A stretch of 64,000 nucleotides of DNA from an uncultured Nitrospiraceae bacterium (GTDB lineage Bacteria; Nitrospirota; 9FT-COMBO-42-15; HDB-SIOI813), in NCBI GenBank assembly GCA_964611625.1, contig CAZTAM010000003.1, positions 311,960 through 375,959 on the forward strand, written 5' to 3'. The position numbers were made by a program, and so were the translations under genes. This document shows positions 118 through 38,817 of this stretch, in pieces (the first letter of the stretch is position 1; the number at the start of each line of letters is the position of its first letter). The notes beneath the pieces are model-generated. The model did no database searches. It saw only the letters and a program-made list of their open reading frames with translations, and was not told the origin of the DNA.

Positions 118-951
118 ATGTCTATAAAAAGAACTATTAAATTTTCAGATATATATAATCTGTTTCATCATGACAAATGGGATGTCGGTTACCTGACTGA
201 AGATCAACTGAAGGTATGTGCCTATTCTCCCATTAAAGGGAAGGCACAGGAGTACGGCGCAGACTATACGAATAATATACATTACCTGTCTGTTGTTAAC
301 TCCATCGTTCTCGTCAGACATTCACCGGATTCCTGGGATTACTCTCTTTACAAAGAGGCAGATGATATCCTCAAAATGAGTAGTCTTGAGAACTGGTTTC
401 CTATCTATACTAATTATAAGGTAGCTGCCATTCTCTCCGGACTGGGGGTAAGGGCCAAAAACTCTCTTATTTATAACCACAGATTTGGCTTTGATATGAA
501 AATCTGCATTGTCGGATTTGAGGATAAAATCATTGAAAGTCCTGTCCCTGAGCAAATTAATTTACAATATTGGGAAAGATGTGAAGGATGTTCAGATTGT
601 CGTTTAGCCTGTCCGGCCGGGGCAATCCATAATGAGCAGGAGCCGTACTGGCTGGACAGCAGCAAGTGTGATGATTTCATGGGGTTCGGAGATCATCCCG
701 AAATACCTTCAATAAAAAGGTTCTGGCATCAGAATGTTCATCCTGAAGTGCCGAAGGACATTGTAGATAATATGAAAAGCTGTACAGACCTGGACGGAGA
801 ACTTTCATTTGATGCTAATGGTTATACACTGGATATGCAGACCGGAGTCCTTAAAGACGGCCTTCCTATCCCGGTCCCATTCTGCAGGGAATGTCAGGTT
901 CAACCACGCTGCAGCAAGTGGGGAGGCAAGTATCCTTATGATTCAATTTAA
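118..951 (+). CDS. QueG-like (epoxyqueuosine reductase family) 4Fe-4S protein
   Basis: Single ferredoxin motif CEGCSDCRLACPAGAI; upstream YKVAAILSGLGVRAKNSLIYNHRFG resembles the QueG/reductive-dehalogenase core as I recall it; shorter (277 aa) than canonical QueG. Confidence 0.4.
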   Translation: MSIKRTIKFSDIYNLFHHDKWDVGYLTEDQLKVCAYSPIKGKAQEYGADYTNNIHYLSVVNSIVLVRHSPDSWDYSLYKEADDILKMSSLENWFPIYTNYKVAAILSGLGVRAKNSLIYNHRFGFDMKICIVGFEDKIIESPVPEQINLQYWERCEGCSDCRLACPAGAIHNEQEPYWLDSSKCDDFMGFGDHPEIPSIKRFWHQNVHPEVPKDIVDNMKSCTDLDGELSFDANGYTLDMQTGVLKDGLPIPVPFCRECQVQPRCSKWGGKYPYDSI

Positions 952-1071: not shown

Positions 1072-2631
1072 ATGGCTTCGAGATATACATATCCCTGGTT
1101 TGTTCGCAAAGACCTGGACGGTTTCTTTGGTCTTGCAATTGATAACCTTATCCAGCTAATGCTAATCGTTGCCCTGACCACCAGGGTAGCAGGTATTCCA
1201 TCAGAGATAATATTCAACTATATACTCCCGGGCGCAGCCATCTCAATAATAGGCGGCAACATATTCTACTCAATCCAGGCACGCAGACTCGCCATGAGGA
1301 CCGGCAGGGATGACGTAACTGCCCTCCCATACGGGATTAATACCGTCAGTCTATTCGCTTACATATTTTTCATAATGGCTCCGGTTTACAATGAGACGCA
1401 GGACCCGGTATTTACATGGAAGATTGGCTTAGTCGCCTGTTTATTCAGTGGACTGATAGAGATTGCAGGCGCGTTTGTCGGAGGATGGATTAGAAAGGTT
1501 ACTCCCAGGGCTGCCCTCCTGTCCACTCTCGCCGGTATTGCAATTACATTTATTTCGATGGAGTTTACATTTCAGATATTTGCAAAACCTGCGCTGGCAT
1601 TCATACCAATGGCTATCATTCTTTTTTACTATATGTCACACATAAGGATACCGGGAGGACTTCCCGGGGGGCTGCTTGCAATTATTGTCGGGGCATCTAT
1701 TGCATGGCTGATGAAACTATCAGGGATAAGCGGTTATTTTGACCCTGACTGGAGCAGGGGCATTCAAGTAAGCCTGTACCTTCCATTACCGGTTATTGAC
1801 AGTGTCTTCGAACTCATCACAAGTGAATATGTCTGGCGATATATGTCTGTAATTATTCCAATGGGGCTTTTTAATGTCGTTGGCTCCCTGCAAAACCTTG
1901 AGAGTGCTGAGGCGGCCGGAGACAAATTCGACACAAAATCCTCTTTATTGGCAAACGGACTCGGAACCGTTCTTGCTTCATTCCTTGGCAGTTGTTTTCC
2001 AACTACTATATATATTGGTCATCCAGGATGGAAGGCACTCGGTGCACGCACAGGATATTCAGTCATGAATGGCATTTTCATCCTTGCAATATGTCTAACA
2101 GGCACCATGGACGCAGTGCTGAAGATAATCCCGATTGAAGCTGGAATAGGCATCCTGCTTTGGATAGGGTTGATAATAGCCGCACAGGCATTTCAGGAGA
2201 CTCCGAAACACCATGCAATTGCAGTTGCCCTGGGTTTATTCCCATCATTTGCCGCGTGGGGATTGAATATGGTTGATACAGGTCTCAGGGCAGGAGGTAC
2301 CAATCTCTACAACGCGGTAAACAGCGGTTCCTTTCAGGGGATAATGCCTGTCACAGGGGCTATTTCATTGAGCCAGGGTTTTATATTCACATCAATGATT
2401 CTTGCTGCCATGTCTGTACATGTGATAGAGAGACATTACTGGAAGGCATCTCTATGGGCTTTCAGTGCAGCAATATTATCATACATCGGGATTATTCATG
2501 CTTATACACTAACAATGTCCGGAGTAGCCAACAGGTTTGAACTGGGGGCAGCCGGTGAGTTCGCCGCATGCTATGCAGCGGTGGGGGTCTTACTCTTATT
2601 TCTTCAGGTCAAAAACAAGACTCAGTTGTAA
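1072..2631 (+). CDS. NCS2/AzgA-family nucleobase (purine) permease
   Basis: 519-aa polytopic membrane protein, Gly-rich helices, N-terminus typical of AzgA-like hypoxanthine/guanine permeases; ATG start. Confidence 0.6.
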   Translation: MASRYTYPWFVRKDLDGFFGLAIDNLIQLMLIVALTTRVAGIPSEIIFNYILPGAAISIIGGNIFYSIQARRLAMRTGRDDVTALPYGINTVSLFAYIFFIMAPVYNETQDPVFTWKIGLVACLFSGLIEIAGAFVGGWIRKVTPRAALLSTLAGIAITFISMEFTFQIFAKPALAFIPMAIILFYYMSHIRIPGGLPGGLLAIIVGASIAWLMKLSGISGYFDPDWSRGIQVSLYLPLPVIDSVFELITSEYVWRYMSVIIPMGLFNVVGSLQNLESAEAAGDKFDTKSSLLANGLGTVLASFLGSCFPTTIYIGHPGWKALGARTGYSVMNGIFILAICLTGTMDAVLKIIPIEAGIGILLWIGLIIAAQAFQETPKHHAIAVALGLFPSFAAWGLNMVDTGLRAGGTNLYNAVNSGSFQGIMPVTGAISLSQGFIFTSMILAAMSVHVIERHYWKASLWAFSAAILSYIGIIHAYTLTMSGVANRFELGAAGEFAACYAAVGVLLLFLQVKNKTQL

Positions 2632-2643
2632 AACCGAAGGTAG

Positions 2644-3549
2644 TCAAGCCTTGTTGCCAACAAGTGAATGAATGGCAAATACTATCCCGCCTGCCAGACT
2701 TGACATGACAAGAATTGTAAACCAGCCAAAGGCGAATGTCAGCGCCTCTGTCTTTGGAATGTTTACGAATGATAAAAAGAAGACGTAAGCCCCTTCTCTC
2801 AAACCGATGCCGCTCAGACTTACAGGAAGCATGCTCACCGTAACTACAAGTGGTACCACCAGGAGATAAAACTGCCATGGGATTATCAATTCAAGTGACA
2901 TGCCTATCAAGATGTGGATAACTATTACCAGTGAATGGAATATAACAGAGATACCTATGGCCTTCATTAATGGTACAGGGTTTTTCCAGAAGATTAAAAG
3001 AAGTGATACTTTTTCACTTACAGCAGTAAGATATTTACCTGCAAATACCGGTACGATAAACCCTGTTAAAATAAGTATATTTCCGATTAATATAACCGCA
3101 GGTAATGAAGAAGGAAGCGTAATCGTGTTTAACAATGTAAGAGAAATGCCGGCGATCATTACCAGCACAATTAACCCTGACGCTCTGTCTGCCAGTACTG
3201 ATACAACTGCCCTGAGAACTTTCTTGTTCCCCTTTGCAAGGTAATAGCACTTACCGACATCTCCGCCTATAGCCGTCGGGAGAAACAGGTTAAAGAATAT
3301 CCCTATATAATAGAAAATAAAGAATTCGCGAAAGCTGTTTTGAAAACCCATTACCATGGCGACCAGCTTCCACCGGTATGCACAAAGTGCCTGTCCAAGC
3401 AGGTAAAGCCCGAGTGCTATTAAAAGATATTCGACGTGGATATTCTTGAATAGCTGCCACACCTCTGCAAAATCTATTTTTCTAAACAGGTAAATAAGAA
3501 TGGCTGCGCTGACTCCAGCCTTTAACAATGTCGTAATTATCTTCTTCAC
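2644..3549 (-). CDS. Flippase-like (UPF0104 / LPG-synthase TM domain) membrane protein
   Basis: 301-aa, about 8 predicted TM helices, no soluble domain; GTG start; immediately downstream of the GT2 gene. Confidence 0.5.
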   Translation of the reverse strand: MKKIITTLLKAGVSAAILIYLFRKIDFAEVWQLFKNIHVEYLLIALGLYLLGQALCAYRWKLVAMVMGFQNSFREFFIFYYIGIFFNLFLPTAIGGDVGKCYYLAKGNKKVLRAVVSVLADRASGLIVLVMIAGISLTLLNTITLPSSLPAVILIGNILILTGFIVPVFAGKYLTAVSEKVSLLLIFWKNPVPLMKAIGISVIFHSLVIVIHILIGMSLELIIPWQFYLLVVPLVVTVSMLPVSLSGIGLREGAYVFFLSFVNIPKTEALTFAFGWFTILVMSSLAGGIVFAIHSLVGNKA

Positions 3550-3561
3550 CCGAATAAACTT

Positions 3562-4533
3562 CTAACCCCCCTCTATGTTAATCCTGTCTCTCACGCTGTA
3601 AATGGGCTTACCCTGAGACTCATAATATGTCCTCACCTGTATCTCAGCAAGTATACCCATGCTGAACAACTGAAGACCTGCCAATATCAGTAATGTCCCA
3701 AAGAGCAGTAATGGCCTGTTGGAAAGGCTTGCACCGTAAAATATCTTCTGAAACGCAAGATATCCGTCAATTACTGTACCTGTTATCAGTAATATAATAC
3801 CAGACCACCCGAATATGTGGAGAGGTCTTTCAAGGAAGAATTTCAGAAAAATAACGGATATGAGATCAATAAGCACACGGAAGGCGCGAGACAGGGTATA
3901 CTTGCTCTTTCCATACAGCCTCGGGTGGTGAGTGACTGTCATCTCTGTAATACTTGCCCCATAAATACTCGCCAGTGCCGGGATAAAACGATGCAGCCCG
4001 CCATACAGCGGTATGTTCTTGATGACCTCTGCCCGGTAAGCCTTGAGAGAACAACCGTAGTCGTGTAATCTAACCCCGGTTGTTCTGCCAATTATCCAGT
4101 TCGCAATTACGGACGGAATCCTTCTGGAGAACAGCCGGTCTTTCCTATCCTTCCTCCAGCCGTTTACAACATCATATCCTTCCTCCAGTTTAGATATTAA
4201 TGCCGGTATATCCGACGGGTCATTCTGCATGTCGCCGTCCATGGCTACAATTATCTCACCCCTTGCAAAGTCAAATCCAGCAGACATCGCCGCCGACTGT
4301 CCGAAATTACGCCTCAGCCTGACAGTCCTGATATACTCATATTGAGAACAAATCTTCTTTAGTATTGAAAAGGTCTCATCTGTACTGCAGTCATCAACGT
4401 AAATTATCTCAAAAATAATCCCCATCTTGTGCAGGACTGCCAGAAGGGCTGCGTTCATCCCTGGAATATTCTCTGCCTCGTTATAAACAGGGATAACAAC
4501 AGAAATATACGTTTTGTCTTTATCAGTATCCAT
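3562..4533 (-). CDS. GT2 polyprenyl-phosphate glycosyltransferase (ArnC/DPM1/GtrB-like)
   Basis: VVIPVYNE...YVDDCSTDET...DGDMQNDP motifs of GT-A family 2, plus two C-terminal TM helices as in ArnC/GtrB. Confidence 0.75.
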   Translation of the reverse strand: MDTDKDKTYISVVIPVYNEAENIPGMNAALLAVLHKMGIIFEIIYVDDCSTDETFSILKKICSQYEYIRTVRLRRNFGQSAAMSAGFDFARGEIIVAMDGDMQNDPSDIPALISKLEEGYDVVNGWRKDRKDRLFSRRIPSVIANWIIGRTTGVRLHDYGCSLKAYRAEVIKNIPLYGGLHRFIPALASIYGASITEMTVTHHPRLYGKSKYTLSRAFRVLIDLISVIFLKFFLERPLHIFGWSGIILLITGTVIDGYLAFQKIFYGASLSNRPLLLFGTLLILAGLQLFSMGILAEIQVRTYYESQGKPIYSVRDRINIEGG

Positions 4534-6803
4534 TAGTCATTGCTCATCTTATTAAACGGCTTATTTGTAGCAAGTGTATAACCCCGCTCTTCATAAAGGA
4601 CATGAAGGTCCGGGTGCAGCGTAAGACTTTCCATCCCTGATGTCTTTGAAATAATAAAAGCCCTTTCCTCTGACTCTATGAATTCTGTCAATTTATCCAG
4701 CTCCCTTGACGACAGTATGTTAGCAGGCCGTTGAGCATAAAACAATATGCTTGGTTTATTAAGACCATATACAACGAGTTTGTCATCAGGGCCCATTTGA
4801 GCAGACGCTATCCTTGAGAAATTCCTCAATGTCGACTGGAGATATTTGTCAGCAACCGGAGTTACGAAAGTAAAGAGAATACATGAAACAACGGTTACCA
4901 TACCCGCCAGGACTCCAAAGGCAAGTCCCCTCCTCTTGCGCCACAAAGCCAAAATAAACAGCAGGATGGCAGACGCCAGGACCACAGCAATATAGTAAAA
5001 CCCATATCCCCACTCTACAGGCTCAGTAAACTGCTTCAGGACTACCCTGGAATCAGCCAGGTAATGCGGCAAGTAAACTGCGCCTGCAGCACCAATAAGC
5101 AAGAGAATAATCATGAAGGCGAAAGAGTACTTTAATCCTTGAGATCCTGAAATAACTTCACGATGACAAACTTGATTTTCGTCATCAGGGAAAATATACT
5201 CATACCATAATCTCCCAACCATTATGGCAAGCGGAGCTGACAGGGGTACAATATATCCTGGTAATTTAGTCCTTGATATTGAAAAAAAGATAAATATAAC
5301 AAGAAACCATATGATAGAAAAAAGAATAATAGATTCTTTCGGGTCAATTCGCCCTCTATGCCTCGAGCGCGGTATATACTTGTATAAGATCTGAGGAAGG
5401 AAGGTACTCCAGGGGAAATAAGCAAATAGTATTACAGGGATAAAATAATAAACAGACCCCTTGTGTCCTGAGACAACACCGGTAAAGCGGGTAACATTGT
5501 GCTTTATAAAGAAGGCATTTATATATTCCCATCCGTTAATCCATATCTCAACTATATACCACGGAAGGGCAACTGCCAGGAAAATCAATATACCTGAAAG
5601 AAGATGCATTTTTTTTAATGAATTTATCAATTCCCCCCTCAGAATAAGAAAGATGCAAATTATGGCGCCCGGAAGCACAACTCCCACAGGACCCTTAGTC
5701 AGAACAGCGAGGGCAAGACTTAAGTAGAATCCCAGGTACCACAAACCCATACCAGTTCCTTTGACTTCTCTGATGTATCCAAGGAAGAAACAAAATAGTG
5801 ATGAAGATATAAAAAACGCCAGTGTCATATCCGTGATGGATGCATGTGAAAGCACTATTACTTCAAGAGATGCAGCAAATATTATTGCAGTAATGACACC
5901 CCATTTCGGATGTCCAATCCAGCGAAGAAGATAGTAGCACATCAGAGTGAGCATGACTCCAAATGCCGCAGACCAGAAACGTGCGGCGAACTCTGTTATT
6001 CCGAAGGCCCTGAATGATGATGCCATCAGCCAGTAAAAAAAGACCGGTTTATCATACCGGTTTGAATAATTATACTGAGGTGTAATCCAGTTACCGGTTT
6101 CGATCATCTCCCTTGAGGCCTCAGCGTATACCGCCTCATCAACATCAAAGAGTCCCGGTGAACCAATATTATAGAAAAAAATAAAAAAGCTGAAGGCGGC
6201 TATGCCTATTGGAGGACCATACTTTCTTGCCATATCCTTTAAACCCTCTATTCCCATTCCGGCAATCATACGCCCTGTCACAGTCCCTAATATAATCCCC
6301 GCAAAGACGTCCGACGGGAAATGGGCGCCAACGTAAATTCTCGATACGCTGACGAGAATCGCATATCCATAAAGGGGGTATTTCATCCAGGGTAAGTATG
6401 CAGATAAGGTATATGCAACCGCAAAAGACGAGGTTGCGTGTCCTGAAGGAAATGAGTCAAATCCCGGGAGGAGAGAAGGTCCAAGGGTAAATCCAAAAGC
6501 CTCCAATACCTTTGGACGAGGTCTGCCTATTATGTGTTTGATTATCTGACTCAATACACCTGCGGCAGCAACAGCATAAATCCCCTTCTTCCCTGCTTCA
6601 ACTATTTTTTCCTCTTTTTTTATAATCAGACCAATGAGTATAATAAAAAAACAAAACAGGGCCTGGACCCACCCTTTCCCAAGGTAACTCAGCCATGACA
6701 TGATGTTATTGAGATAAGGAGACCTGAACAAACCGGCAGTGTCAGCAGCGAAGTTGTCAACAAAAAAAAGAAGGACGAGAATAACAGGTATAATTTTTAT
6801 CAT
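4533..6803 (-). CDS. PAP2 phosphatase fused to GT-C glycosyltransferase (ArnT/PMT-like)
   Basis: N-terminal PAP2 motifs KxxxxxxRP (IIGRPRP), PSGH, SRxxxxxHxxxD (SRIYVGAHFPSDV); C-terminal ~560 aa polytopic with DE motif (FDVDEAVY) typical of ArnT/PMT; stop overlaps the GT2 start by 1 nt (TAATG). Confidence 0.65.
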   Translation of the reverse strand: MIKIIPVILVLLFFVDNFAADTAGLFRSPYLNNIMSWLSYLGKGWVQALFCFFIILIGLIIKKEEKIVEAGKKGIYAVAAAGVLSQIIKHIIGRPRPKVLEAFGFTLGPSLLPGFDSFPSGHATSSFAVAYTLSAYLPWMKYPLYGYAILVSVSRIYVGAHFPSDVFAGIILGTVTGRMIAGMGIEGLKDMARKYGPPIGIAAFSFFIFFYNIGSPGLFDVDEAVYAEASREMIETGNWITPQYNYSNRYDKPVFFYWLMASSFRAFGITEFAARFWSAAFGVMLTLMCYYLLRWIGHPKWGVITAIIFAASLEVIVLSHASITDMTLAFFISSSLFCFFLGYIREVKGTGMGLWYLGFYLSLALAVLTKGPVGVVLPGAIICIFLILRGELINSLKKMHLLSGILIFLAVALPWYIVEIWINGWEYINAFFIKHNVTRFTGVVSGHKGSVYYFIPVILFAYFPWSTFLPQILYKYIPRSRHRGRIDPKESIILFSIIWFLVIFIFFSISRTKLPGYIVPLSAPLAIMVGRLWYEYIFPDDENQVCHREVISGSQGLKYSFAFMIILLLIGAAGAVYLPHYLADSRVVLKQFTEPVEWGYGFYYIAVVLASAILLFILALWRKRRGLAFGVLAGMVTVVSCILFTFVTPVADKYLQSTLRNFSRIASAQMGPDDKLVVYGLNKPSILFYAQRPANILSSRELDKLTEFIESEERAFIISKTSGMESLTLHPDLHVLYEERGYTLATNKPFNKMSND

Positions 6804-6908
6804 TATTTATGTTACATTTATGCAGTTCGCATAACTTGTTGACAACAAATTTTAATATTGCTACATTCTACAACATCACGAAACATAATTCCATACGGAG
6901 GCGACTGA

Positions 6909-7067
6909 ATGGCAACCATTAATTACATAGTTAAGGTGGAAGATGCAAAGATGTCTCAGATAAAGAAAGCCCTTGAAACTGCAAATATTAAAGTAATCAG
7001 TATCATTGATATTTATAAATCAGGAGAAGAAGCTGCTAAGAAGGAGACAACGGCAGAAGAGAAATGA
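6909..7067 (+). CDS. Small hypothetical protein (52 aa), not in ORF track
   Basis: ATG preceded by GGAGG about 8 nt upstream; MATINYIVKVEDAKMSQIKKALETANIKVISIIDIYKSGEEAAKKETTAEEK. Confidence 0.3.
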   Translation: MATINYIVKVEDAKMSQIKKALETANIKVISIIDIYKSGEEAAKKETTAEEK

Positions 7068-7076
7068 CAAATAAAG

Positions 7077-8123
7077 TCATAAACTGACTACCCTGTCCTT
7101 CCCGCCCTCTTTGGCTTTATACAATGCGTTGTCAGCCTTCCTGATGAGATTGTCAATTTCAGTTATATCAGGGTGAGGATAAGTAGCAACACCGATACTT
7201 ACTGTTATCATTTCACCCTCCTTAATGCTGTCAAATCTGAAATCTCTCACAGAGCTGCGAATACGCTCTGCCAGTCTCATTGCATCCTCCCTTATACTGC
7301 TGGGAAGTATAGCAGAGAACTCCTCACCTCCATATCTTGCAATAATATCAGTTTCCCTGACACATGTTTTAAGCACTCTTGCAACATCCCTCAATACCTT
7401 GTCGCCTGCCTGATGTCCGTAAGTATCGTTAATGCGCTTGAAATTATCGAGGTCAATCATCATGCATGAGAGAGAACCGTGATATCTTTTAGCCCTTTTA
7501 AATTCCTCCTCAAGCCTCCGGACAAAATATTTGTGGTTATAAAGCCGCGTAAGATCATCCGTGATGACCATCTTTTCCAGGAGCAGCTTCTCTTCCCTCA
7601 TAACATTAAACAAATGGGCATTTTTAAGTGCAACAGCCGCCCCCTCTATAATTACCTGACAGAGTTTAAGGTCATTCTCACTGAACTTATTATCCTTTCT
7701 GGATGTCCTCAGAAATAGTGAACCTCCTTCACTGTCATAATAACGAATAGGCATTATAATAATTGATTTAATACCTAACCCTACAATCTTGTCCCTGATT
7801 TCAGAAAGCATCGGATCTGTAGCAACATCTCCTATAAATACGATGTTGTTGTCTTTAACAGACCTGCTGATCTCAGGATATTTTTCGAGGTTTAATGTTA
7901 TTGAATCAAGACCAGGGTCTTCAAATGTTGCGAGAACGTTACCAGAGTTTTTTTCTTTATCAACATTTACTATAGAACACCGGATAACAGGCATTACTTC
8001 AGCTATCTTCTGAACAATAAGAAACAACAAGTCCTTTGTTTCCAGTGTAGAAAAGAGAGACTTATTTACATTGAGAATTATATCCAGGAAATCCTTTATG
8101 TTGTTTTCGGATCTTATTTCCAT
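7077..8123 (-). CDS. GAF-domain diguanylate cyclase (GGDEF)
   Basis: N-terminal GAF-like region; C-terminal GGDEF domain with active site RYGGEEF and I-site RETD. Confidence 0.75.
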   Translation of the reverse strand: MEIRSENNIKDFLDIILNVNKSLFSTLETKDLLFLIVQKIAEVMPVIRCSIVNVDKEKNSGNVLATFEDPGLDSITLNLEKYPEISRSVKDNNIVFIGDVATDPMLSEIRDKIVGLGIKSIIIMPIRYYDSEGGSLFLRTSRKDNKFSENDLKLCQVIIEGAAVALKNAHLFNVMREEKLLLEKMVITDDLTRLYNHKYFVRRLEEEFKRAKRYHGSLSCMMIDLDNFKRINDTYGHQAGDKVLRDVARVLKTCVRETDIIARYGGEEFSAILPSSIREDAMRLAERIRSSVRDFRFDSIKEGEMITVSIGVATYPHPDITEIDNLIRKADNALYKAKEGGKDRVVSL

Positions 8124-8133
8124 GTTTTTTTAA

Positions 8134-8502
8134 CTAACCAATGTCAATTGTAACGGATACTTCAGCCTTCGCTCCTGCCTCCCTGATTGCATCTGCAACC
8201 AGTTTCCTGTGACAGTTATTTACATTCTCCCAGCATAAGAGACATATCTTTGCATCGGAATTGGATTTAACCCAGTCTTCTATAGCTGACGACCGCTGTT
8301 TAAGAATAGTCGTCATCTTTTCATTCAGCTTTTCAGAATCCTTTGTCTTATTGTATTCTATCTGGACATCGTAGGTTGGAGTAAACAGCCACAGAATAGT
8401 CATGTCCCTCAGTCGCTGGGGTTTCGTTGTTGATATAGCATAAACAGTATAGCCAAGCGAATCAGAGGGCATATTATCGAAACTTCGTGTTATGAGACGC
8501 AT
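8134..8502 (-). CDS. DUF488-family protein
   Basis: 122 aa with LLCWE...CHR motif as I recall for DUF488; SD GAGGTG 7 nt upstream of ATG; 10-nt gap to the GGDEF gene. Confidence 0.45.
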   Translation of the reverse strand: MRLITRSFDNMPSDSLGYTVYAISTTKPQRLRDMTILWLFTPTYDVQIEYNKTKDSEKLNEKMTTILKQRSSAIEDWVKSNSDAKICLLCWENVNNCHRKLVADAIREAGAKAEVSVTIDIG

Positions 8503-9056: not shown

Positions 9057-10571
9057 CTAAAATTCCTGGTCCATCTGCAGCCATATGACGTGAGATGCAT
9101 CACTAACATCTTCTAAACCATAACCTGCGCTTATACCCAGATTATCCGTTAACCTATACATAACATCAAAACCGCTCCATGTCCTGTTATCCGGAGTATC
9201 AGCGTGTACACGCACTCTTTCATAGTCCGTCTCAAGGCCAATTCTAACACTCCTGACAGGGAAGTACTCCACCCTTGCAAATATGTCTTCTGCATCTGCC
9301 CCCATATGATGTCCTATTATTCTTCCTTCATAGGTATATCCTGAGGTATACCTGCCGTGGGCATACCATGCATTATAGCCGGTATTTACGGCAGTCGTAG
9401 CCCATTCTAATCTTACGCTCGTATTATCAAGTAAAAAAGGTTCATCAACAAATATACCTGCAAGAAATGCCTTTTCTTTAGGCCACCCGTTGCCTGAAGA
9501 ATCCTCAGCCCCGATCTCTCCATATATTTTCATCCCGGAAAAAGGCCATGACCTGTTTAGTCTGTTTATCATAAGCGAGAAGTCAAGAGACATAATCTGA
9601 TTATTATCAATATCTGAACTTTCCCATCCATGCTCGGTATTGTCATTTGCAATAAGTATATTGAACCAGTCTGAGATGGTAAGACCCTTTCTCCCTTCAC
9701 CGCCGAACATTATTACCCTTGATAATGCAAATCTGAATGACTGCAATGGCCTGAAATCAAAGCGCATGCCCATCACTTTCGCATGAGGATAATCTCTCTT
9801 CTCTTCAAGTTGTGTAACAAAAAGAGTTGGTTTGAATTCTCCCAGCCCTCTTAAAAGCCAGGGCAGGATAAAAGGACTCTGCGATGTTAACCTGATCATA
9901 TCAAGCGGCCTTGCATTATTAGTCAGAAGAAAACTGCCGTGATAACCCGGTCCCCACCAGAGAGGTTCTCTTCCAATTACGAGTTCAATATTGGCTGCAT
10001 TCAATAATCCGTAACCAGTTATCACCTCCCCTTCAGAACCACCCTCCCGCCCCCTGAATTCAGGGTTAAGATAGAAAGATACGCTGCTGCCAAATCTAAG
10101 ATCTGAAGAAATGCCGGCCCTTACATTGCTTCCTGCCTTAATGACATCGCCATTATTATTCGCGTTAAAATAATCAGGATTATCATCACTGAACGTGTAT
10201 CTGAGGTAGGCCGTATCAACAGGTTTTAGAAATATATAAGAAGAATCTTTCGCCTTTGGCTCGCTTAACTCATTATCCAGCTCAGCGAGCATCAGACGGA
10301 TGTCCGGCATCTCATTTTTCTTATTATCAGGCAGGCTGTTCCATGTATTGAGTGCTTCATCCGTAAGCCTCCTCACCTCCACCCTGCTGAAGGGTTTAGT
10401 TGACAGAATACCGGTTTTAATGAATCCACGTGCATCAAGTATGTCTAAGTAATTATATATTCGGCTGTTGAGTGGAGTGTTCGGGGCAGTGCCGGCATTA
10501 ACTATAAAAGGATACAGTATGAAAGATATAATAATCAGATAGAAGGCACAGACCATTAAAATGCCAGTCAT
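9057..10571 (-). CDS. Outer-membrane protein, possibly Wzi-like capsule assembly protein
   Basis: N-terminal signal/anchor, Tyr/Gly-rich barrel-like C-terminus, YNYLDILDARG motif reminiscent of Wzi; track start is TTG at 10604, internal ATG at 10571 preferred. Confidence 0.35.
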   Translation of the reverse strand: MTGILMVCAFYLIIISFILYPFIVNAGTAPNTPLNSRIYNYLDILDARGFIKTGILSTKPFSRVEVRRLTDEALNTWNSLPDNKKNEMPDIRLMLAELDNELSEPKAKDSSYIFLKPVDTAYLRYTFSDDNPDYFNANNNGDVIKAGSNVRAGISSDLRFGSSVSFYLNPEFRGREGGSEGEVITGYGLLNAANIELVIGREPLWWGPGYHGSFLLTNNARPLDMIRLTSQSPFILPWLLRGLGEFKPTLFVTQLEEKRDYPHAKVMGMRFDFRPLQSFRFALSRVIMFGGEGRKGLTISDWFNILIANDNTEHGWESSDIDNNQIMSLDFSLMINRLNRSWPFSGMKIYGEIGAEDSSGNGWPKEKAFLAGIFVDEPFLLDNTSVRLEWATTAVNTGYNAWYAHGRYTSGYTYEGRIIGHHMGADAEDIFARVEYFPVRSVRIGLETDYERVRVHADTPDNRTWSGFDVMYRLTDNLGISAGYGLEDVSDASHVIWLQMDQEF

Positions 10572-10621
10572 GTCACCCTTTTTACTTCTAAAAAACAATT
10601 TCAATTCCCACAGCAGTTTTC

Positions 10622-21601: not shown

Positions 21602-24600
21602 TTATTCAGACCCCCTTTTCCGGCTGAACATACCTCGCAATGATAACGTCTGAGACTGGTAATAGAGCACCGGCACAACCACCAGTGTCAGCAGTGTGGC
21701 TGCAGCCAGGCCGAATATGACTGCTACCGCCATTGGCCCCCACCACTGAGCTGATTCGCCTCCGATTTCCAGGGATAAATTTCGGAAGTCGAAACTCACC
21801 CCGACTGCCATGGGAAGAAGGCCCAGGATTGTTGTCACTGCCGTGAGCATGACCGGGCGAAAGCGCACGAGACCAGCATGAATGAGCGCCTCACGCAGTT
21901 CCATTCCCTTATTTCTTAACTGATTGATATAGTCAATGAGTACGATGGCATTGTTTACGACCACACCTGCCAGGGATATGACTCCGATGCCGGTCATGAT
22001 AATGCCGAAAGGTGTTGCGGTAACCAGCAGGCCCATGAAAACTCCGGTTAGCGACAGGATAACGGATGTCATGACTATCAGCATTTGTAGAACTGAATTG
22101 AACTGGGTAAGGAGGACAAGTGCTATTAGAAAGACCGCAACGATGAAGGCCTTCCCAAGAAAAGCAGATGCCTTCTGCTGCTCTTCCTGTTCGCCGGAGA
22201 AATTGATCTTATAACCGGCGGGCAGCTCGATTCCTGACAACCGGGTCTGTACATCTTTCAATACCTCGTTGCTGTTTCGGCCGAAAGTGTTGGCGGAGAT
22301 GGTCACCACCCTATTCTGATCAATGTGGCGGATGGCTCCGAAACCAGTCTCCATCTCTATCCTGGCAACTGTGGAGAGTGGAACGGGGGCTCCTGTCCTC
22401 GTCGGAATAAGGAGGCTGCCGATATCACTAAGGCTCTGCCGTCGGGGTTCAGGCAGGCGGGCAATGATGTCATATTCGTCCTTGCCTTCTCGGTAAACTC
22501 CAAGCTTGCTTCCGCTGATTGCAGCCTTGACTGTGCTGGAAATCTCCGCGGTGGAGAGCCCCAGCAGGGTTGCTTTATTCCGGTCAACCAGCACCCTTAT
22601 CTCAGGTTTGGCCTTTGAGAAATCGTCCTTGAGATCAACCAGTCCCGGAACATCTTTTACCAGGGATTTGGACTTCTCTACCAGCGACTCAAGAGTTTCG
22701 ACCACTTCTCCGCTGATCTCTATGTTTACGGGCGGACCTGTGGGTGGACCCGTCTCTTCTTTTTCCACCTTGATCTCTGCCCCGGCCATGGAGGCAACCG
22801 CCTCCCGTATGCGTCCCAGCACGATATTGGAATTCTCTCTGCGCTTCTCCCGCTCGACAAAGTCGAGGGAAATTTTACTAAAATTAGACTGAGCACCGGC
22901 ACTGCTGCCGGCTTCGCCACTCGCGCCAACTCCGACCTCAGCAATAATGAATTTAAGATCCTTTTCCGGACTGGCAGCCTTCTCCACAATCATAGCCAAC
23001 TGGTTGGATGTCTCCAGGTTAGCCCCTTCCGGTGCCTTGATTTCGACGAATGCCCTGTTAGGCTCCGTATCCGGGAAGAGCTCTACCCCATGACCCAACA
23101 GACTGTATCCGGCAATGATAAGAAGCAGCAATGTAAGCGCCCCGCCGACTACCAGTCCCCGATGATCAAGGGATTTCCCCAGAATCCAGCGATACATACC
23201 TAATATGCGCATTTGCTCATCAACGCCGCCTGTGCTGCTGCGGCTGACACGCATAAATGAAGCACAGAGTACCGGGTTGATGACCAGGGCTACCAGCAGT
23301 GATGCCGTCAGAACTATGATAAGGGTCATGGGAAGATATTTCATGAACTCGCCCATCACCCCAGGCCAGAACAACATGGGACCGAATGCGCACAGAGTGG
23401 TCAGTGTCGAGGATATAACCGGCCAGCCGACCTCGCTTACCGCCCTGCGTGCAGCGCTGATCCGGTCATCACCTTCCTGCATGTGCCGGTATATGTTCTC
23501 AACGATTACGATGGCGTTGTCTACCAGCATCCCAAGTGCCAGGATCAGGCTGAACAATACTACCATGTTTAGGGTGATTCCCATCGCCTGAATGACGGCA
23601 AAGGACAGGAGCATGGAAAATGGGATCGCCGATGCGACAAATATGGCGCTGTTCAATCCCAGAAAAAAGAAGAGTACCGCAACCACAAGAATCAGGCCGG
23701 TTAGGATGTTATTCTCCAGATCAGAGACCATGGTCCGGATGTCCCTGGATTGGTTCAGCGTTACGGACAGCTCGACCCCCGCCGGAACCTGCTTCCGGGC
23801 CTCTTCAAGCAGCGCAAATACATGGTCGGCGACTGCGATGATGTTCTCGCCAGTCCGCTTCTTCACCGCAAGTGTCACGCTGCTTCTACCGTTGAGCCTG
23901 GCATGGCTTGTGCGGTCTTCAAAAGTGTCGCGGACCACTGCAACATCCTTGAGGTAGATCGGGCGGCCGTCACGGCTTGCCACCATCAGGGTGTCCACCT
24001 CGTCCGGGCTGGTGAACTCCCCGGGTATGCGGAGGAGGTATTCTCCCCGCCCTATATCGAGGCTGCCGCCTGGGATGTTGACATTTTCGCGTTGAACGGA
24101 CTGAAGTATCTCGGCAAAAGAGAGTCTGTAGGCGAACATTCTGTCAGGGTTGAATTCCACCCTGATTTCCCTCTCCCGTCCACCCGCAAGATTCACCTCC
24201 AGAACGCCTGGAATCGCTTCAATCCTGTCCTCCAGTTCTTCCGCCACACGTTTGAGAACCGTTTCCTCAACATCACCGGAAACAGCAAGCATCAGAATCG
24301 GAAACTCCGAAAGGTTGACCTCGAAGATAACAGGATCGTTTTCCAGATCTTCGGGGAGATCCCCTTTGGCCTGATCAACTTTGTCGCGCACCCACTGTAT
24401 GGCGTTGTCGATGTCTACCCTGGGAGTAAATTCAATAGTAATCACTGAGGAACCCTCGGCACTGACTGATCTGATTTCTTCCACGTCCCTGAGGCCCTTT
24501 AGCTTGCGTTCTATTGGCAGGGTAATGAGGGTTTCAATGTCCGATGGCGCAGCCCCCTCATAGGAGGTGACCACCATAACATACGGTATTGTGATGTCAG

Positions 24601-24712
24601 GGGACGATTCACGCGGAAGTGTAATGTAGCTGTATGCCCCAATTACAATAAAAAAAACCATCAGGGCGAAGATTGTGCTGCGATGGCCAATGGCTGCATC
24701 AGATATCAGCAT
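21602..24712 (-). CDS. RND efflux transporter permease (AcrB/CzcA superfamily)
   Basis: About 1040 aa, 12-TM RND architecture; track start is TTG at 24733, internal ATG at 24712 gives an AcrB-like N-terminus. Confidence 0.85.
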   Translation of the reverse strand: MLISDAAIGHRSTIFALMVFFIVIGAYSYITLPRESSPDITIPYVMVVTSYEGAAPSDIETLITLPIERKLKGLRDVEEIRSVSAEGSSVITIEFTPRVDIDNAIQWVRDKVDQAKGDLPEDLENDPVIFEVNLSEFPILMLAVSGDVEETVLKRVAEELEDRIEAIPGVLEVNLAGGREREIRVEFNPDRMFAYRLSFAEILQSVQRENVNIPGGSLDIGRGEYLLRIPGEFTSPDEVDTLMVASRDGRPIYLKDVAVVRDTFEDRTSHARLNGRSSVTLAVKKRTGENIIAVADHVFALLEEARKQVPAGVELSVTLNQSRDIRTMVSDLENNILTGLILVVAVLFFFLGLNSAIFVASAIPFSMLLSFAVIQAMGITLNMVVLFSLILALGMLVDNAIVIVENIYRHMQEGDDRISAARRAVSEVGWPVISSTLTTLCAFGPMLFWPGVMGEFMKYLPMTLIIVLTASLLVALVINPVLCASFMRVSRSSTGGVDEQMRILGMYRWILGKSLDHRGLVVGGALTLLLLIIAGYSLLGHGVELFPDTEPNRAFVEIKAPEGANLETSNQLAMIVEKAASPEKDLKFIIAEVGVGASGEAGSSAGAQSNFSKISLDFVEREKRRENSNIVLGRIREAVASMAGAEIKVEKEETGPPTGPPVNIEISGEVVETLESLVEKSKSLVKDVPGLVDLKDDFSKAKPEIRVLVDRNKATLLGLSTAEISSTVKAAISGSKLGVYREGKDEYDIIARLPEPRRQSLSDIGSLLIPTRTGAPVPLSTVARIEMETGFGAIRHIDQNRVVTISANTFGRNSNEVLKDVQTRLSGIELPAGYKINFSGEQEEQQKASAFLGKAFIVAVFLIALVLLTQFNSVLQMLIVMTSVILSLTGVFMGLLVTATPFGIIMTGIGVISLAGVVVNNAIVLIDYINQLRNKGMELREALIHAGLVRFRPVMLTAVTTILGLLPMAVGVSFDFRNLSLEIGGESAQWWGPMAVAVIFGLAAATLLTLVVVPVLYYQSQTLSLRGMFSRKRGSE

Positions 24713-25796: not shown

Positions 25797-25862
25797 CACT
25801 GGTCTCCGGATTTTGACATTTATACTCCACGTAAGTAATTAAAGTTGCCTGCAAGAAAAACC

Positions 25863-37959: not shown

Positions 37960-38017
37960 GGCTGGTGATAGCCAGTGGTAAATAGTCCGGGGGCAGACTA
38001 TAGAAAAGGGGGATGTT

Positions 38018-38812
38018 ATGAAGATATGTATAAAATTACTTATACTGTTTTTTCTGGCTGTCAGCATTAATCCGTCGTTAGTTCATGCAGAAGATGCATC
38101 TGATATTGTCAGCAAATCTCAGGATGCCTTTTTCTCTCAGGGCAGGGATATGAAGGCAAGGGTAAAAATGACCCTGTTGTCCAAATCAGGTCAGCAGAGA
38201 TTGAGAGAACTTACAATGCTGCGCAGGAACGGCACCGGGGGCGAGCAGAAATACTTCATGTATTTTCACAACCCGGGTGATGTTCGCGGCACATCATTCA
38301 TGGTCTATAAGTATCCTGGAAAAGATGACGACAGGTGGATATTCATTCCGTCCATAAAACTCGTTAACCGTATCGCGGCCAAAGACAGCAGATCAAGCTT
38401 TGTCGGATCAGACTTTACATATGAGGATGTGTCAGGACGGGATATCGAAGCTGACAGTCACAAATACCTCAGAGAAGAACCGCTTCAGGGAAAACAGTGT
38501 CATGTCATTGAGAGTACCCCGAAGAACCCTGCTGAATATACCAGAAAGATATCATGGGTTGACAAGGCAACGTATCTGCCGCTTAAAGATGAGTATTATG
38601 ATGTCCAGGGATCACTCTATAAGGTATTTACAGCAGATAAGGTTGATATCGTCGAAGGACTACCCACAATAACAAAAAGGAGCATGGCCAATATAAAGAA
38701 CGGCCATAAGACAGAAGTAGTATTCGATAATGTCTCTTACAATGTCGGTATTACTGATGATGTTTTCTCAGAGAGGTATCTGAGGAAACCATCAGATAAG
38801 TGGATAAAATAG
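38018..38812 (+). CDS. LolA-like outer-membrane lipoprotein-sorting family protein
   Basis: Signal peptide then a ~240-aa beta-rich domain; resembles the family commonly adjacent to MMPL exporters; SD AAAGGGGGA. Confidence 0.55.
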   Translation: MKICIKLLILFFLAVSINPSLVHAEDASDIVSKSQDAFFSQGRDMKARVKMTLLSKSGQQRLRELTMLRRNGTGGEQKYFMYFHNPGDVRGTSFMVYKYPGKDDDRWIFIPSIKLVNRIAAKDSRSSFVGSDFTYEDVSGRDIEADSHKYLREEPLQGKQCHVIESTPKNPAEYTRKISWVDKATYLPLKDEYYDVQGSLYKVFTADKVDIVEGLPTITKRSMANIKNGHKTEVVFDNVSYNVGITDDVFSERYLRKPSDKWIK

Positions 38813-38817
38813 GCCGA

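What the first reader, a model, noticed from the sequence alone, without database searches (positions are those of the whole stretch)
2644..6803. Three-gene glycolipid-modification module with a PAP2-phosphatase/GT-C glycosyltransferase fusion
Seen in sequence: three minus-strand genes with almost no gaps (1-nt TAATG overlap, 12-nt gap) encode a 756-aa PAP2 phosphatase fused to a GT-C (ArnT/PMT-like) transferase, a GT2 polyprenyl-phosphate glycosyltransferase with C-terminal TM helices, and a flippase-like UPF0104 membrane protein. Established: ArnC-type GT2 enzymes load sugar onto undecaprenyl phosphate, the lipid-linked sugar is flipped, and ArnT-type GT-C enzymes transfer it to lipid A phosphate or another periplasmic acceptor; separate PAP2 enzymes (LpxE/LpxF) dephosphorylate lipid A. 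Inference: the fusion could couple lipid A dephosphorylation with glycosylation in one polypeptide, which I do not recognise as a characterised arrangement. Lipid A synthesis genes are present in this same window.
Basis: partly seen in the sequence, partly recalled or inferred. Interest (0 to 1): 0.7.

Follow-up and report, generated by a model that had tools for sequence, protein, structure and literature searches.

The report
Fused lipid phosphatase–glycosyltransferase envelope module
A Nitrospirota bacterium joins a membrane lipid phosphatase to an ArnT-like sugar transferase in one protein, next to the two genes that would make and flip the lipid-linked sugar; it most likely swaps a lipid A phosphate for a sugar, an uncharacterised fused form of a pathway already known as separate genes.

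Summary
Three tightly packed minus-strand genes encode a 756-aa PAP2–GT-C fusion, an ArnC-like GT2 and an MprF-type flippase-like protein. All PAP2 and ArnT catalytic residues are invariant in 68 aligned fusions. The AlphaFold model is confident (pLDDT 89, pTM 0.88). Helix parity and the positive-inside rule put both active sites on the periplasmic side.

The fusion is not an artefact: 88 of the 115 closest full-length relatives are fused. The other 27 are standalone GT-C genes. All three of their loci that I inspected carry a separate PAP2 gene abutting the GT-C, two of them at a syntenic locus. A tree needs at least three fusion/fission events.

The best explanation (about 0.55) is remove-and-replace on lipid A: take off a phosphate, probably the 1-phosphate, then glycosylate the freed position. 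The separate-gene precedent is rgtE–lpxE–rgtF of Oligotropha.

Neither the acceptor nor the sugar is shown. The PAP2 half cannot be told apart from undecaprenyl-diphosphate or PGP phosphatases by sequence, and no locus links the module to LPS genes.

Verdict: a widespread, uncharacterised variant of a known kind, of moderate interest.

The parts
4533..6803 (-). Gene for the 756-aa bifunctional PAP2 phosphatase / ArnT-like GT-C glycosyltransferase (stop codon 4533-4535)
   Evidence: ORF. Pfam PAP2 and PMT. PDB sequence matches to ArnT 5EZM (E 3e-47) and LpxE 6EBU (E 3e-13). AF2 pLDDT 89.4, pTM 0.88. Foldseek to ArnT, TM-score 0.80.
6258..6803 (-). PAP2 domain (aa 1-182): six TM helices, with motifs K89-x6-R96-P, P119-S-G-H122 and S154-R155-x5-H161-x3-D165
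   Evidence: The motif residues K89, R96, P119-H122, R155, H161 and D165 are invariant in 68 fusions and S154 is nearly invariant. They are present in 87 of 88 fused homologs. Helices come from the AF2 model. Foldseek gives LpxE 6EBU TM-score 0.75 at 31% identity and B. subtilis PgpB 5JKI TM-score 0.63.
6210..6257 (-). Short basic cytoplasmic linker (aa 183-198, with K189, R193, K194) joining PAP2 TM6 to GT-C TM1
   Evidence: K+R density is 0.20 in this loop, against 0.00-0.10 in loops assigned as periplasmic. The D165-to-D220 spacing is 48-62 residues in most of the 68 fusions.
4536..6209 (-). ArnT-like GT-C domain (aa 199-756): TM bundle plus C-terminal periplasmic domain. Catalytic and carrier-phosphate residues are D220, D222, E223, D251, K252, D325, R439 and Y517.
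   Evidence: Residues were mapped to C. metallidurans ArnT D55, E56, E84, K85, D158, R270 and Y345 from the alignment; their roles come from PMC7801869. All are invariant except D251, which is nearly invariant. The NCBIfam ArnT equivalog scores 164 bits against a cut-off of 567.
3562..4533 (-). GT2 polyprenyl-phosphate glycosyltransferase (323 aa, ArnC/GtrB architecture with two C-terminal TM helices); its start overlaps the fusion's stop by 1 nt
   Evidence: Pfam Glycos_transf_2, E 2.6e-31. ArnC structures 9BHC and 8VXH, E 1.6e-55 over residues 10-318; GtrB 5EKP, E 2e-40. NCBIfam ArnC scores 211 bits against a cut-off of 529. It is the most conserved module member, 61-85% identical across loci.
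2644..3549 (-). UPF0104 / LPG_synthase_TM flippase-like membrane protein (301 aa, GTG start, 12 nt after the GT2 stop)
   Evidence: Pfam PF03706, E 5.6e-37; TIGR00374. AF2 pLDDT 88.9. The only significant PDB fold matches are MprF flippase domains, TM-score 0.65-0.72. It shares a contig with at least 16 fused or split GT-C homologs, judged by contig-length matches.
6804..7076 (-). 273-nt upstream intergenic region, the presumed promoter region of the three-gene operon (not verified)
   Evidence: Gene spacing. The consensus promoter scan found no more sites than chance.

Best explanation
This is a four-activity envelope-lipid modification module packed into three genes.

1. Shown by homology: the GT2 enzyme loads a sugar from a nucleotide sugar onto undecaprenyl phosphate at the cytoplasmic face.
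2. Inferred: the UPF0104 protein, which has the MprF flippase fold, moves the undecaprenyl-phosphate-sugar to the periplasmic leaflet.
3. Inferred: the PAP2 domain of the fusion removes a phosphate from lipid A at the periplasmic face. This is most likely the 1-phosphate, by analogy with LpxE.
4. Inferred: the ArnT-like GT-C domain, held next to it by a short cytoplasmic linker, transfers the sugar from the carrier onto the freed position.

The product would be a phosphate-poor, glycosylated lipid A like those of Aquifex, Caulobacter, Oligotropha and Mesorhizobium.

Intact catalytic sites in both halves and same-side topology are shown here. The evolutionary coupling of the PAP2 and GT-C genes is also shown. 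The acceptor, the position attacked and the sugar are inferred.
For: - Domain identities and intact catalytic residues in both halves.
- The GT-C half is far closer to the lipid A transferase ArnT than to any other solved GT-C. Foldseek gives E 4e-20 and TM-score 0.80 over the full length; the next hits are OST and PMT at E of 1e-5 or worse. The NCBIfam ArnT profile scores 164 bits and the next GT-C profile 44 bits.
- Helix parity and the positive-inside rule place both sites on the periplasmic side.
- Gene-fusion (Rosetta-stone) evidence:
  - 88 fused against 27 standalone GT-C among the 115 closest relatives.
  - Split loci L043 and L044 run PAP2|GT-C|GT2|flippase-like with ATGA/GTGA overlaps. 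L042 has GT-C then PAP2.
  - The fused locus L046 shares PEMT-purH-purD synteny with the split loci.
  - The neighbour-joining tree needs at least 3 fusion/fission events.
  - More distant ArnT-like genes (25-31% identity) have no PAP2 nearby.
- The ArnT-type reaction releases Und-P, not Und-PP. A tethered phosphatase therefore has no carrier product to act on, so it is better explained as preparing the acceptor (established biochemistry).
- Precedent as separate genes with consecutive locus tags: Oligotropha rgtE (c19730), lpxE (c19740) and rgtF (c19750), in an organism whose lipid A carries galacturonic acid (GalA) at positions 1 and 4' (PMC7663294). Aquificae lipid A has GalA in place of both phosphates and needs LpxE (PMC6581854).
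- The host makes lipid A and has an outer membrane: lpxD, fabZ, lpxA, an lpxI-like gene and bamA.
Against: - Nothing here shows directly that lipid A is the acceptor.
- In the ten PAP2-plus-GT-C neighbourhoods inspected outside the window's own (L038-L044, L046-L048), the module is never next to LPS or lipid A genes. The neighbours are purH/purD, cobU, or aminotransferase/proline dehydrogenase genes.
- The PAP2 half's best curated-profile hits are undecaprenyl-diphosphatases (SepP 54 bits, YbjG 35 bits). All are far below cut-off and no better or worse than the LpxE match.
- The PAP2 half does not form a clade distinct from ordinary 200-aa PAP2 proteins. There are 2497 representatives at E<=1e-10, of mixed architectures.
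- Aquifex LpxE also hydrolyses C55-PP and PGP (PMC6581854).
- One fused clade (P0045/P0046) is labelled Limnocylindrales, a Chloroflexota order normally without LPS. However, its neighbouring gene belongs to an outer-membrane barrel family.
- The deltaproteobacterial clade has no GT2 or flippase-like gene adjacent.
- The sugar is unknown: there are no sugar-nucleotide genes in the window.
Confidence: 0.55

Rival explanations
1. Carrier-lipid housekeeping tether. The PAP2 domain is a general undecaprenyl-diphosphate (and/or PGP) phosphatase attached to an ArnT-like transferase. That transferase glycosylates its acceptor, possibly a lipid A phosphate as ArnT does, without any prior dephosphorylation. 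The fusion only co-localises Und-P regeneration with a Und-P-consuming pathway.
For: - The best NCBIfam hits of the PAP2 half are undecaprenyl-diphosphatases SepP and YbjG.
- JGI labels standalone relatives 'undecaprenyl-diphosphatase'.
- The closest solved relative, LpxE, has real C55-PP phosphatase activity (PMC6581854).
- Coupling a carrier-lipid phosphatase to a glycan synthase to relieve product inhibition is known for PBP1B (title and abstract of PMC6053597).
- The PAP2 domain is not a separate clade.
Against: - ArnT-type GT-C enzymes fed by an ArnC-type GT2 release Und-P, not Und-PP, so there is no local product for the phosphatase.
- All the UppP profile scores are 5- to 7-fold below their cut-offs.
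- Repeated fusion, strict adjacency in either gene order, and restriction to one GT-C subfamily are more than a housekeeping enzyme would be expected to show.
Confidence: 0.2
2. Same chemistry, different acceptor. The fusion dephosphorylates and then glycosylates a molecule that is not lipid A. Candidates are phosphatidylglycerol phosphate or phosphatidic acid (giving a periplasmically made glycolipid), a phosphorylated LPS core sugar, or another envelope polymer.
For: - B. subtilis PGP phosphatase is among the top sequence and fold matches.
- Characterised or proposed UPF0104 family members handle modified phospholipids and glycolipids: MprF, GpgF and HexF (PMC12713373; fold match).
- A fused clade is labelled Chloroflexota.
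- There is no LPS gene linkage in any locus examined.
Against: - The GT-C half resembles the lipid A transferase ArnT far more than any other solved GT-C, including its C-terminal periplasmic domain.
- I found no GT-C enzyme described as glycosylating glycerophospholipids (limited literature searches).
- The only documented cluster of these three enzyme types is a lipid A pathway.
- The 'Chloroflexota' contig encodes an outer-membrane barrel family protein beside the fusion.
Confidence: 0.17
3. LpxT-like phosphotransferase. The PAP2 domain moves a phosphate from Und-PP onto lipid A, rather than removing one, and the GT-C domain then decorates the resulting diphosphate.
For: LpxT is a PAP2-family enzyme that acts on lipid A at the periplasmic face (PMC2904496, listed).
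Against: - No LpxT profile appears among the NCBIfam hits at E<=0.01.
- From established knowledge of enterobacteria, LpxT activity is inhibited when the lipid A decoration pathways are switched on, so it opposes them rather than cooperating (title of PMC2904496).
- I know of no glycosylated 1-diphosphate lipid A.
Confidence: 0.03
4. Artefactual fusion: two adjacent genes merged by a sequencing or assembly error that removed a stop codon.
For: Split relatives have 4-nt start/stop overlaps, so a single indel could merge them.
Against: - The identical protein occurs in an independent assembly.
- 88 fused homologs come from many samples and lineages, with a conserved linker.
- The AF2 model is confident and continuous across the junction.
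Confidence: 0.01

Closest known systems
rgtE-lpxE-rgtF lipid A 1-dephosphorylation / alpha-(1,1)-galacturonosylation pathway of Rhizobiales (Mesorhizobium loti RgtF; Oligotropha carboxidovorans OCA5_c19730-c19750)
   Same: It has the same three enzyme types with consecutive locus tags: a GT2 polyprenyl-phosphate sugar synthase, a PAP2 lipid phosphatase and an ArnT-superfamily GT-C. The logic is remove a phosphate, then glycosylate the freed position (PMC7663294; PMC8036547).
   Different: There the three are separate genes, whereas here PAP2 and GT-C are one polypeptide. A UPF0104 flippase-like gene belongs to this module but is not reported there. The sugar here is unknown.
ArnC / ArnT (with ArnE/F) aminoarabinose modification of lipid A
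   Same: The GT2 aligns over its full length with ArnC structures (E 1.6e-55). The GT-C shares ArnT's fold (TM-score 0.80) and all its catalytic and Und-P-binding residues. Both use a periplasmic reaction with a Und-P-sugar donor.
   Different: - Both proteins score far below the NCBIfam equivalog cut-offs (164 against 567; 211 against 529), with 26-30% identity to enterobacterial ArnT.
- No arnA, arnB or arnD genes are present.
- The candidate flippase is MprF-like, not the small ArnE/F type.
- ArnT adds to the phosphate, whereas here a phosphatase is fused, which implies addition after phosphate removal.
Aquifex aeolicus LpxE (PDB 6EBU)
   Same: It is the closest solved relative of the PAP2 half (E 3.4e-13, 31% identity, TM-score 0.75). 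It is a six-TM PAP2 enzyme from an organism whose lipid A phosphates are replaced by sugars.
   Different: It is a standalone 180-aa protein. It is experimentally multifunctional, acting on lipid A, C55-PP and PGP, so similarity to it does not fix the substrate. In the alignment its second motif reads PSGD where this protein has PSGH.
GT2 + UPF0104 + PMT/STT3-like GT-C neighbourhood (archaeal AglD-type; Makarova et al. 2015)
   Same: It is the same trio: a polyprenyl-phosphate sugar synthase, an MprF-type flippase-like protein and a GT-C transferase. UPF0104 is proposed there as the flippase (PMC5898192).
   Different: It has no PAP2 component. The acceptor there is proposed to be S-layer glycoprotein or its glycan, not a lipid.
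Helicobacter pylori LpxE-EptA and mcr-1-pap2 gene pairs (from my own knowledge; not checked with the tools)
   Same: A PAP2 phosphatase gene sits next to a lipid A-decorating transferase gene. In H. pylori the 1-phosphate is removed and the position is then re-decorated.
   Different: The transferase there is a phosphoethanolamine transferase, not a GT-C. The genes are separate.

Membership tests
PAP2 (type 2 phosphatidic acid phosphatase) superfamily, PF01569 | Profile match above Pfam's gathering score | tested here: met
   91.6 bits against a cut-off of 27.2, residues 75-179.
PAP2 (type 2 phosphatidic acid phosphatase) superfamily, PF01569 | Tripartite catalytic motif KX6RP / PSGH / SRX5HX3D | tested here: met
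   K89-R96-P97, P119-S-G-H122 and S154-R155...H161...D165. K89, R96, P119-H122, R155, H161 and D165 are invariant in 68 fusions, S154 is nearly invariant, and P97 was not scored. The nine scored residues are present in 87 of 88 fused homologs.
LpxE (lipid A 1-phosphatase) | Specific similarity to characterised LpxE enzymes above similarity to other PAP2 lipid phosphatases | tested here: inconclusive
   Aquifex LpxE is the best PDB match (52 bits). However, the SepP undecaprenyl-diphosphatase profile scores 54 bits and B. subtilis PgpB 39.5 bits. No LpxE or LpxF model appeared among the NCBIfam hits. The domain is not a distinct clade.
LpxE (lipid A 1-phosphatase) | Removes the 1-phosphate of lipid A at the periplasmic face | not testable with these tools
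   Periplasmic orientation is supported. Enzyme activity needs biochemistry or lipid A mass spectrometry.
ArnT (lipid IVA 4-amino-4-deoxy-L-arabinosyltransferase), NCBIfam NF009784 equivalog | Score at or above the curated equivalog cut-off | tested here: not met
   164 bits against a cut-off of 567, and 26-30% identity to enterobacterial ArnT. It is ArnT-like, not an ArnT ortholog.
ArnT-like GT-C fold (GT83/GT39-type, PF02366/PF13231) | GT-C fold with the periplasmic loop-1 Asp/Glu motif and carrier-phosphate ligands | tested here: met
   PMT scores 76.5 bits against 22.7, and PMT_2 scores 53.2 against 26.1. Foldseek to 5F15 gives E 4e-20 and TM-score 0.80. D222, E223, K252, D325, R439 and Y517 are invariant and D251 nearly invariant; they correspond to ArnT D55, E56, K85, D158, R270, Y345 and E84.
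arn (pmrHFIJKLM) aminoarabinose operon | Presence of arnA, arnB and arnD (Ara4N synthesis and deformylation) and arnE/F with arnC and arnT | tested here: not met
   The operon is only fusion-GT2-UPF0104. No such genes turned up among the window ORFs of 150 aa or more that were scanned.
ArnC (NCBIfam NF007986 equivalog) / polyprenyl-phosphate GT2 | Equivalog cut-off for ArnC; GT-A domain plus C-terminal TM hairpin for the broader class | tested here: inconclusive
   The equivalog is not met (211 bits against 529). The broader class is met, with full-length alignment to ArnC and GtrB structures over residues 10-318. Sugar specificity is undetermined.
rgtE-lpxE-rgtF type lipid A dephospho-glycosylation system | Co-occurrence or clustering of a GT2 carrier-sugar synthase, a PAP2 phosphatase and an ArnT-superfamily GT-C | tested here: met
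   All three are in one operon here. They recur in 6 other loci as fused or split modules: L001, L002, L038, L043, L044 and L046.
rgtE-lpxE-rgtF type lipid A dephospho-glycosylation system | Orthology to RgtF/RgtD/RgtE, and glycosylated, dephosphorylated lipid A in the organism | not tested
The organism is an uncultured MAG with no lipid A data.
UPF0104 / LPG_synthase_TM (MprF flippase-domain family), PF03706 | Profile match above the gathering score, and the MprF membrane-domain fold | tested here: met
   128.3 bits against 33.4 over the full length. AF2 pLDDT is 88.9. The only significant PDB matches are six MprF entries, TM-score 0.65-0.72.
UPF0104 / LPG_synthase_TM (MprF flippase-domain family), PF03706 | Lipid flippase activity (here, on Und-P-sugar) | not testable with these tools
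   This is only a prediction in the literature for standalone members (PMC5898192, PMC12713373).

The most novel reading that the evidence does not exclude
The fusion is an obligatorily coupled remove-and-replace machine. Lipid A would pass directly between two periplasm-facing active sites held in a fixed geometry within one polypeptide. A constitutively phosphate-free, glycosylated lipid A would then be a lineage trait of these Nitrospirota and related Desulfobacterota. The UPF0104 partner would be a dedicated undecaprenyl-phosphate-sugar flippase, a role never shown experimentally for this family.
Probability: 0.3. Interest if true: 0.6.

Novelty: new variant of a known kind. Interest (0 to 1): 0.45.

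Why it matters
Sugar-for-phosphate replacement on lipid A changes the outer membrane's charge, its resistance to cationic peptides and how innate immunity recognises it. In most organisms that have it, the enzymes are only partly assigned.

- A natural fusion, together with split and reordered forms at the same locus, is genomic evidence that a particular PAP2 phosphatase works with a particular GT-C transferase. It also offers a compact two-step enzyme for biochemistry, structural work or engineering of detoxified lipid A.
- The module gives a concrete, testable candidate (UPF0104) for the flippase of undecaprenyl-phosphate sugars.
- It predicts an unusual lipid A in uncultured Nitrospirota.
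- If the acceptor turns out not to be lipid A, the module would point to an unknown periplasmic glycolipid pathway.

Tried and rejected
- The genome-contig scan with the single protein returned only three fused relatives. The other hits were distant ArnT-like genes, because the peptide patterns were too narrow.
- Foldseek against AFDB50 was unavailable. I could not look for fusions in cultured organisms.
- AF2 coordinates are not exposed. The distance and shared groove between H161 and D222 could not be measured. Only pTM 0.88 hints at a fixed domain arrangement.
- The ArnT structure paper PMC4963604 is not held. Residue roles were taken from PMC7801869 instead.
- The promoter/terminator scan gave no more sites than shuffled sequence, so it was not used.
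- tblastn against plasmids found no fusion and no usable rgtF/lpxE pair. The best hit was a GT2+GT39 pair in Acidithiobacillus caldus.
- The PAP2-only searches gave generic names and mixed architectures. Substrate cannot be assigned by homology.
- Four literature searches found no description of the fusion. This covers open-access papers and preprints only.
- A GlcN-PG-type pathway (PMC12713373) was considered and rejected as a direct model. It uses a cytoplasmic GT4 and has no GT-C or PAP2, and shares only the UPF0104 partner.
- The + strand ORFs inside the genes (2900-3244, 3817-4068, 5461-5727) were treated as shadow ORFs.

Full report
**Observation**

The window carries three minus-strand ORFs exactly where stated: 4533..6803 (756 aa), 3562..4533 (323 aa) and 2644..3549 (301 aa, GTG start). 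The sequence shows the TAATG stop/start overlap and the 12-nt gap.

Pfam and NCBIfam confirm the domain calls.
- The long protein has PAP2 at residues 75-179 (E 4.5e-26).
- It has a PMT/ArnT-type GT-C from residue 203 (E 3e-21). The ArnT profile covers 204-549.
- The second protein is a GT2 that aligns over its full length with solved ArnC (E 1.6e-55) and GtrB.
- The third is an LPG_synthase_TM/UPF0104 protein (E 5.6e-37).

An identical fusion protein, with the same neighbours, occurs in an independent public assembly. The closest named relatives are from Nitrospirota MAGs.

The window also holds bamA, skp, lpxD, fabZ, lpxA and an lpxI-like gene at 57-63 kb. The host is therefore a diderm that makes lipid A. 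Those genes are 53 kb from the module and say nothing about linkage.

**Both halves are functional and face the same way**

In an alignment of 68 fused homologs down to 34% identity, the PAP2 catalytic residues are invariant: K89, R96, P119-S-G-H122, R155, H161 and D165. The GT-C residues D220, D222, E223, K252, D325, R439 and Y517 are also invariant.

Using the HMMER alignment to C. metallidurans ArnT, and residue roles quoted in PMC7801869, these map as follows.
- D55/E56 (active site) correspond to D222/E223.
- E84/K85 (metal and carrier phosphate) correspond to D251/K252.
- D158 corresponds to D325, R270 to R439 and Y345 to Y517.

AlphaFold2 gives a confident single model (pLDDT 89.4, pTM 0.88).
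- The GT-C part superposes on full-length ArnT (Foldseek E 4e-20, TM-score 0.80). This is far better than OST, PMT, Alg or Aft enzymes.
- The PAP2 part matches Aquifex LpxE (TM-score 0.75, 31% identity) and B. subtilis PgpB (TM-score 0.63).
- No solved structure contains both parts.

Helix parity sets the topology. PAP2 has six TM helices. Its motif-bearing loops (93-120 and 158-162) lie on one side. TM6 (163-182) returns to the other side. A short basic linker (183-198) leads into GT-C TM1, which emerges in the DxDE loop on the same side as the PAP2 motifs.

Across the 68 fusions, K+R density is 0.16-0.29 in the loops assigned as cytoplasmic (0.20-0.29 in the three internal ones). It is 0.00-0.10 in those assigned as periplasmic. 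This agrees with the experimentally known topologies of ArnT and of PAP2 lipid phosphatases.

The topology criterion could never have separated a lipid A phosphatase from a PAP2 Und-PP phosphatase, because both face the periplasm.

**The fusion is real, recurrent and evolutionarily coupled**

Of the 115 near-full-length proteins among the top hits, 88 are fused and 27 are standalone GT-C. All but one fusion keep the nine PAP2 residues (P0011 has G for D165). All but one keep the eight GT-C residues (P0017 is gapped there).

All three standalone GT-C genes whose loci I examined sit beside a separate PAP2 gene.
- L043 and L044 read PAP2, GT-C, GT2, UPF0104, with ATGA/GTGA overlaps at the PAP2/GT-C junction.
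- L042 has the reverse order, GT-C then PAP2.

The split proteins are collinear with the fusion. PAP2 is 36-39% identical over residues 4-193, and GT-C is 39-41% identical over 199-756.

A fused locus at 37% identity (L046) shares the upstream genes PEMT-purH-purD with the split loci L043 and L044. Fused and split forms therefore occupy one syntenic site. A neighbour-joining tree of the GT-C region nests the split forms among fused clades and needs at least three fusion/fission events.

The full four-domain module is present in L001, L002, L038, L043, L044 and L046 as well as in the window. More distant ArnT-like genes (25-31% identity) in Verrucomicrobiota, Neptunomonas and others have no PAP2 or UPF0104 gene within the flanks held, at most 6 kb on either side. 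Contig-length matches between searches place the UPF0104 gene on the same contig as at least 16 fused or split GT-C genes.

Not every clade keeps the whole module.
- A deltaproteobacterial clade has the fusion between a class-III aminotransferase gene and, in three of four loci, an unknown 438-440-aa protein gene. No GT2 or UPF0104 gene is adjacent.
- The P0046 clade has the fusion alone.

**The partner proteins**

The GT2 is the best-conserved member (61-85% identity across loci). It has the ArnC/GtrB architecture. It is therefore a polyprenyl-phosphate glycosyltransferase, but it scores below the ArnC equivalog cut-off (211 bits against 529).

No sugar-nucleotide or arnA/B/D-like genes turned up among the window ORFs of 150 aa or more that I scanned. 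The sugar cannot be named.

The UPF0104 model (pLDDT 88.9) matches only the membrane flippase domain of MprF (six entries, TM-score 0.65-0.72). Makarova et al. had already noted GT2 + UPF0104 + PMT/STT3-like GT-C as a conserved neighbourhood and proposed UPF0104 as the flippase (PMC5898192). GpgF and HexF are further proposed flippases in this family (PMC12713373). None of these roles has been shown experimentally.

**Mechanism**

I think the most likely course is this.
1. The GT2 charges undecaprenyl phosphate with a sugar at the cytoplasmic face.
2. UPF0104 flips the carrier-sugar to the periplasmic leaflet.
3. The PAP2 domain removes a lipid A phosphate at the periplasmic face.
4. The adjoining ArnT-like domain glycosylates the freed position.

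The main argument for acceptor preparation rather than carrier recycling is chemical. A GT-C fed by an ArnC-type GT2 releases Und-P, not Und-PP. A tethered phosphatase then has no carrier product to hydrolyse.

The precedent is direct. In Oligotropha carboxidovorans, the genes assigned as rgtE (GT2), lpxE (PAP2) and rgtF (ArnT-superfamily alpha-1,1-GalA transferase) carry consecutive locus tags c19730, c19740 and c19750. That organism's lipid A carries GalA at both ends (PMC7663294). In Aquificae, GalA replaces both phosphates and LpxE supplies the 1-phosphatase (PMC6581854).

I favour the 1-position, because LpxE is the closest solved relative and lpxE-rgtF is the known pairing. The 4' position is not excluded.

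**Why confidence is only about 0.55**

- Nothing shows the acceptor.
- The PAP2 half scores the same against undecaprenyl-diphosphatase profiles as against LpxE. It does not form its own clade among 2497 representatives at E<=1e-10.
- Aquifex LpxE itself also hydrolyses C55-PP and PGP.
- No examined locus places the module next to LPS genes.
- One fused clade is labelled Limnocylindrales (Chloroflexota), which should lack LPS. Its neighbouring gene belongs to an outer-membrane barrel family (Phenol_MetA_deg, above the gathering score). The binning or the envelope type is therefore uncertain.

The rivals I rank are these.
- A carrier-lipid housekeeping tether (0.20).
- The same chemistry on an acceptor other than lipid A (0.17).
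- An LpxT-like phosphotransferase (0.03).
- An artefactual fusion (0.01).

**Comparison and novelty**

The module works like rgtE-lpxE-rgtF and is built from ArnC/ArnT-like and LpxE-like parts.
- It is not an arn operon. The equivalog cut-offs are not met and no Ara4N genes are present.
- Orthology to the Rgt proteins could not be tested.

The fused architecture is common in metagenomes. It is annotated only as 'phosphatase PAP2 family protein' or 'ArnT-like/phospholipid phosphatase'. Four full-text searches found no paper describing it; these cover open-access literature only.

I rate it a new variant of a known kind. It is a useful natural gene-fusion clue and an attractive target for biochemistry, but not a new principle. 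Interest is 0.45.

Noticed in passing
window 1072..2631 (+): A 519-aa polytopic membrane protein with no Pfam or NCBIfam match at the thresholds used. It converges on the module and ends 12 nt from the flippase-like gene's stop. It is also present in the independent assembly L037.
   Followed up: partly
window 9057..10604 (-): A Wzi-like outer-membrane capsule-assembly protein (PF14052, E 2.6e-72), 2.2 kb upstream of the module and separated from it by a GAF-GGDEF gene (7077..8123) and a small DUF488-like ORF (8134..8502). This points to a surface polysaccharide in this organism.
   Followed up: partly
window 21602..25799 (-): An AcrB-type RND pump with a HlyD-type adaptor lies in a stretch of clearly higher G+C (0.50-0.54 against about 0.43 for the window). 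It may have been acquired horizontally.
   Followed up: no
window 35677..40056 (+): An MMPL/sterol-sensing-domain transporter, a LolA-like protein and a 418-aa protein without any Pfam match sit in a row. This looks like a lipid or lipoprotein export module.
   Followed up: no
L039 4730-10424; L040 4733-10366; L047 3733-9361; L048 3733-7178: In the deltaproteobacterial clade the fusion's start overlaps by 4 nt the end of a class-III aminotransferase gene. In three of the four loci it is followed by a conserved 438-440-aa protein with no Pfam hit and then a proline dehydrogenase. No GT2 or flippase-like gene is adjacent. It is unexplained whether these neighbours are functionally tied to the fusion.
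   Followed up: partly
L041 1-190 and 2938-3753: The contig labelled 'Candidatus Limnocylindrales' (Chloroflexota) starts with what reads like a 5S rRNA gene. Right after the fusion it encodes a Phenol_MetA_deg outer-membrane-barrel family protein. That is odd for a supposedly monoderm lineage; the contig may be mis-binned, or the lineage may be diderm.
   Followed up: partly
one search hit list (e.g. P0256-P0276, P0252, P0261, P0289): Many close relatives of the PAP2 domain are 330-380-aa proteins with a C-terminal extension of about 150 residues of unknown nature. Some 430-590-aa proteins contain two PAP2 stretches. These are further uncharacterised PAP2 architectures.
   Followed up: no
window 6909..7067 (+): A small 52-aa ORF lies divergent from the fusion gene in the upstream intergenic region. 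It is also called as a gene in L037. It has no known family.
   Followed up: no
L046 10020-11192: HicA/HicB and ParE-type toxin-antitoxin genes lie immediately downstream of the fused module in this relative.
   Followed up: no
window 118..951 (+): A 277-aa 4Fe-4S protein with a weak reductive-dehalogenase/YfhL-type match, well below cut-off. Its identity is unclear.
   Followed up: no
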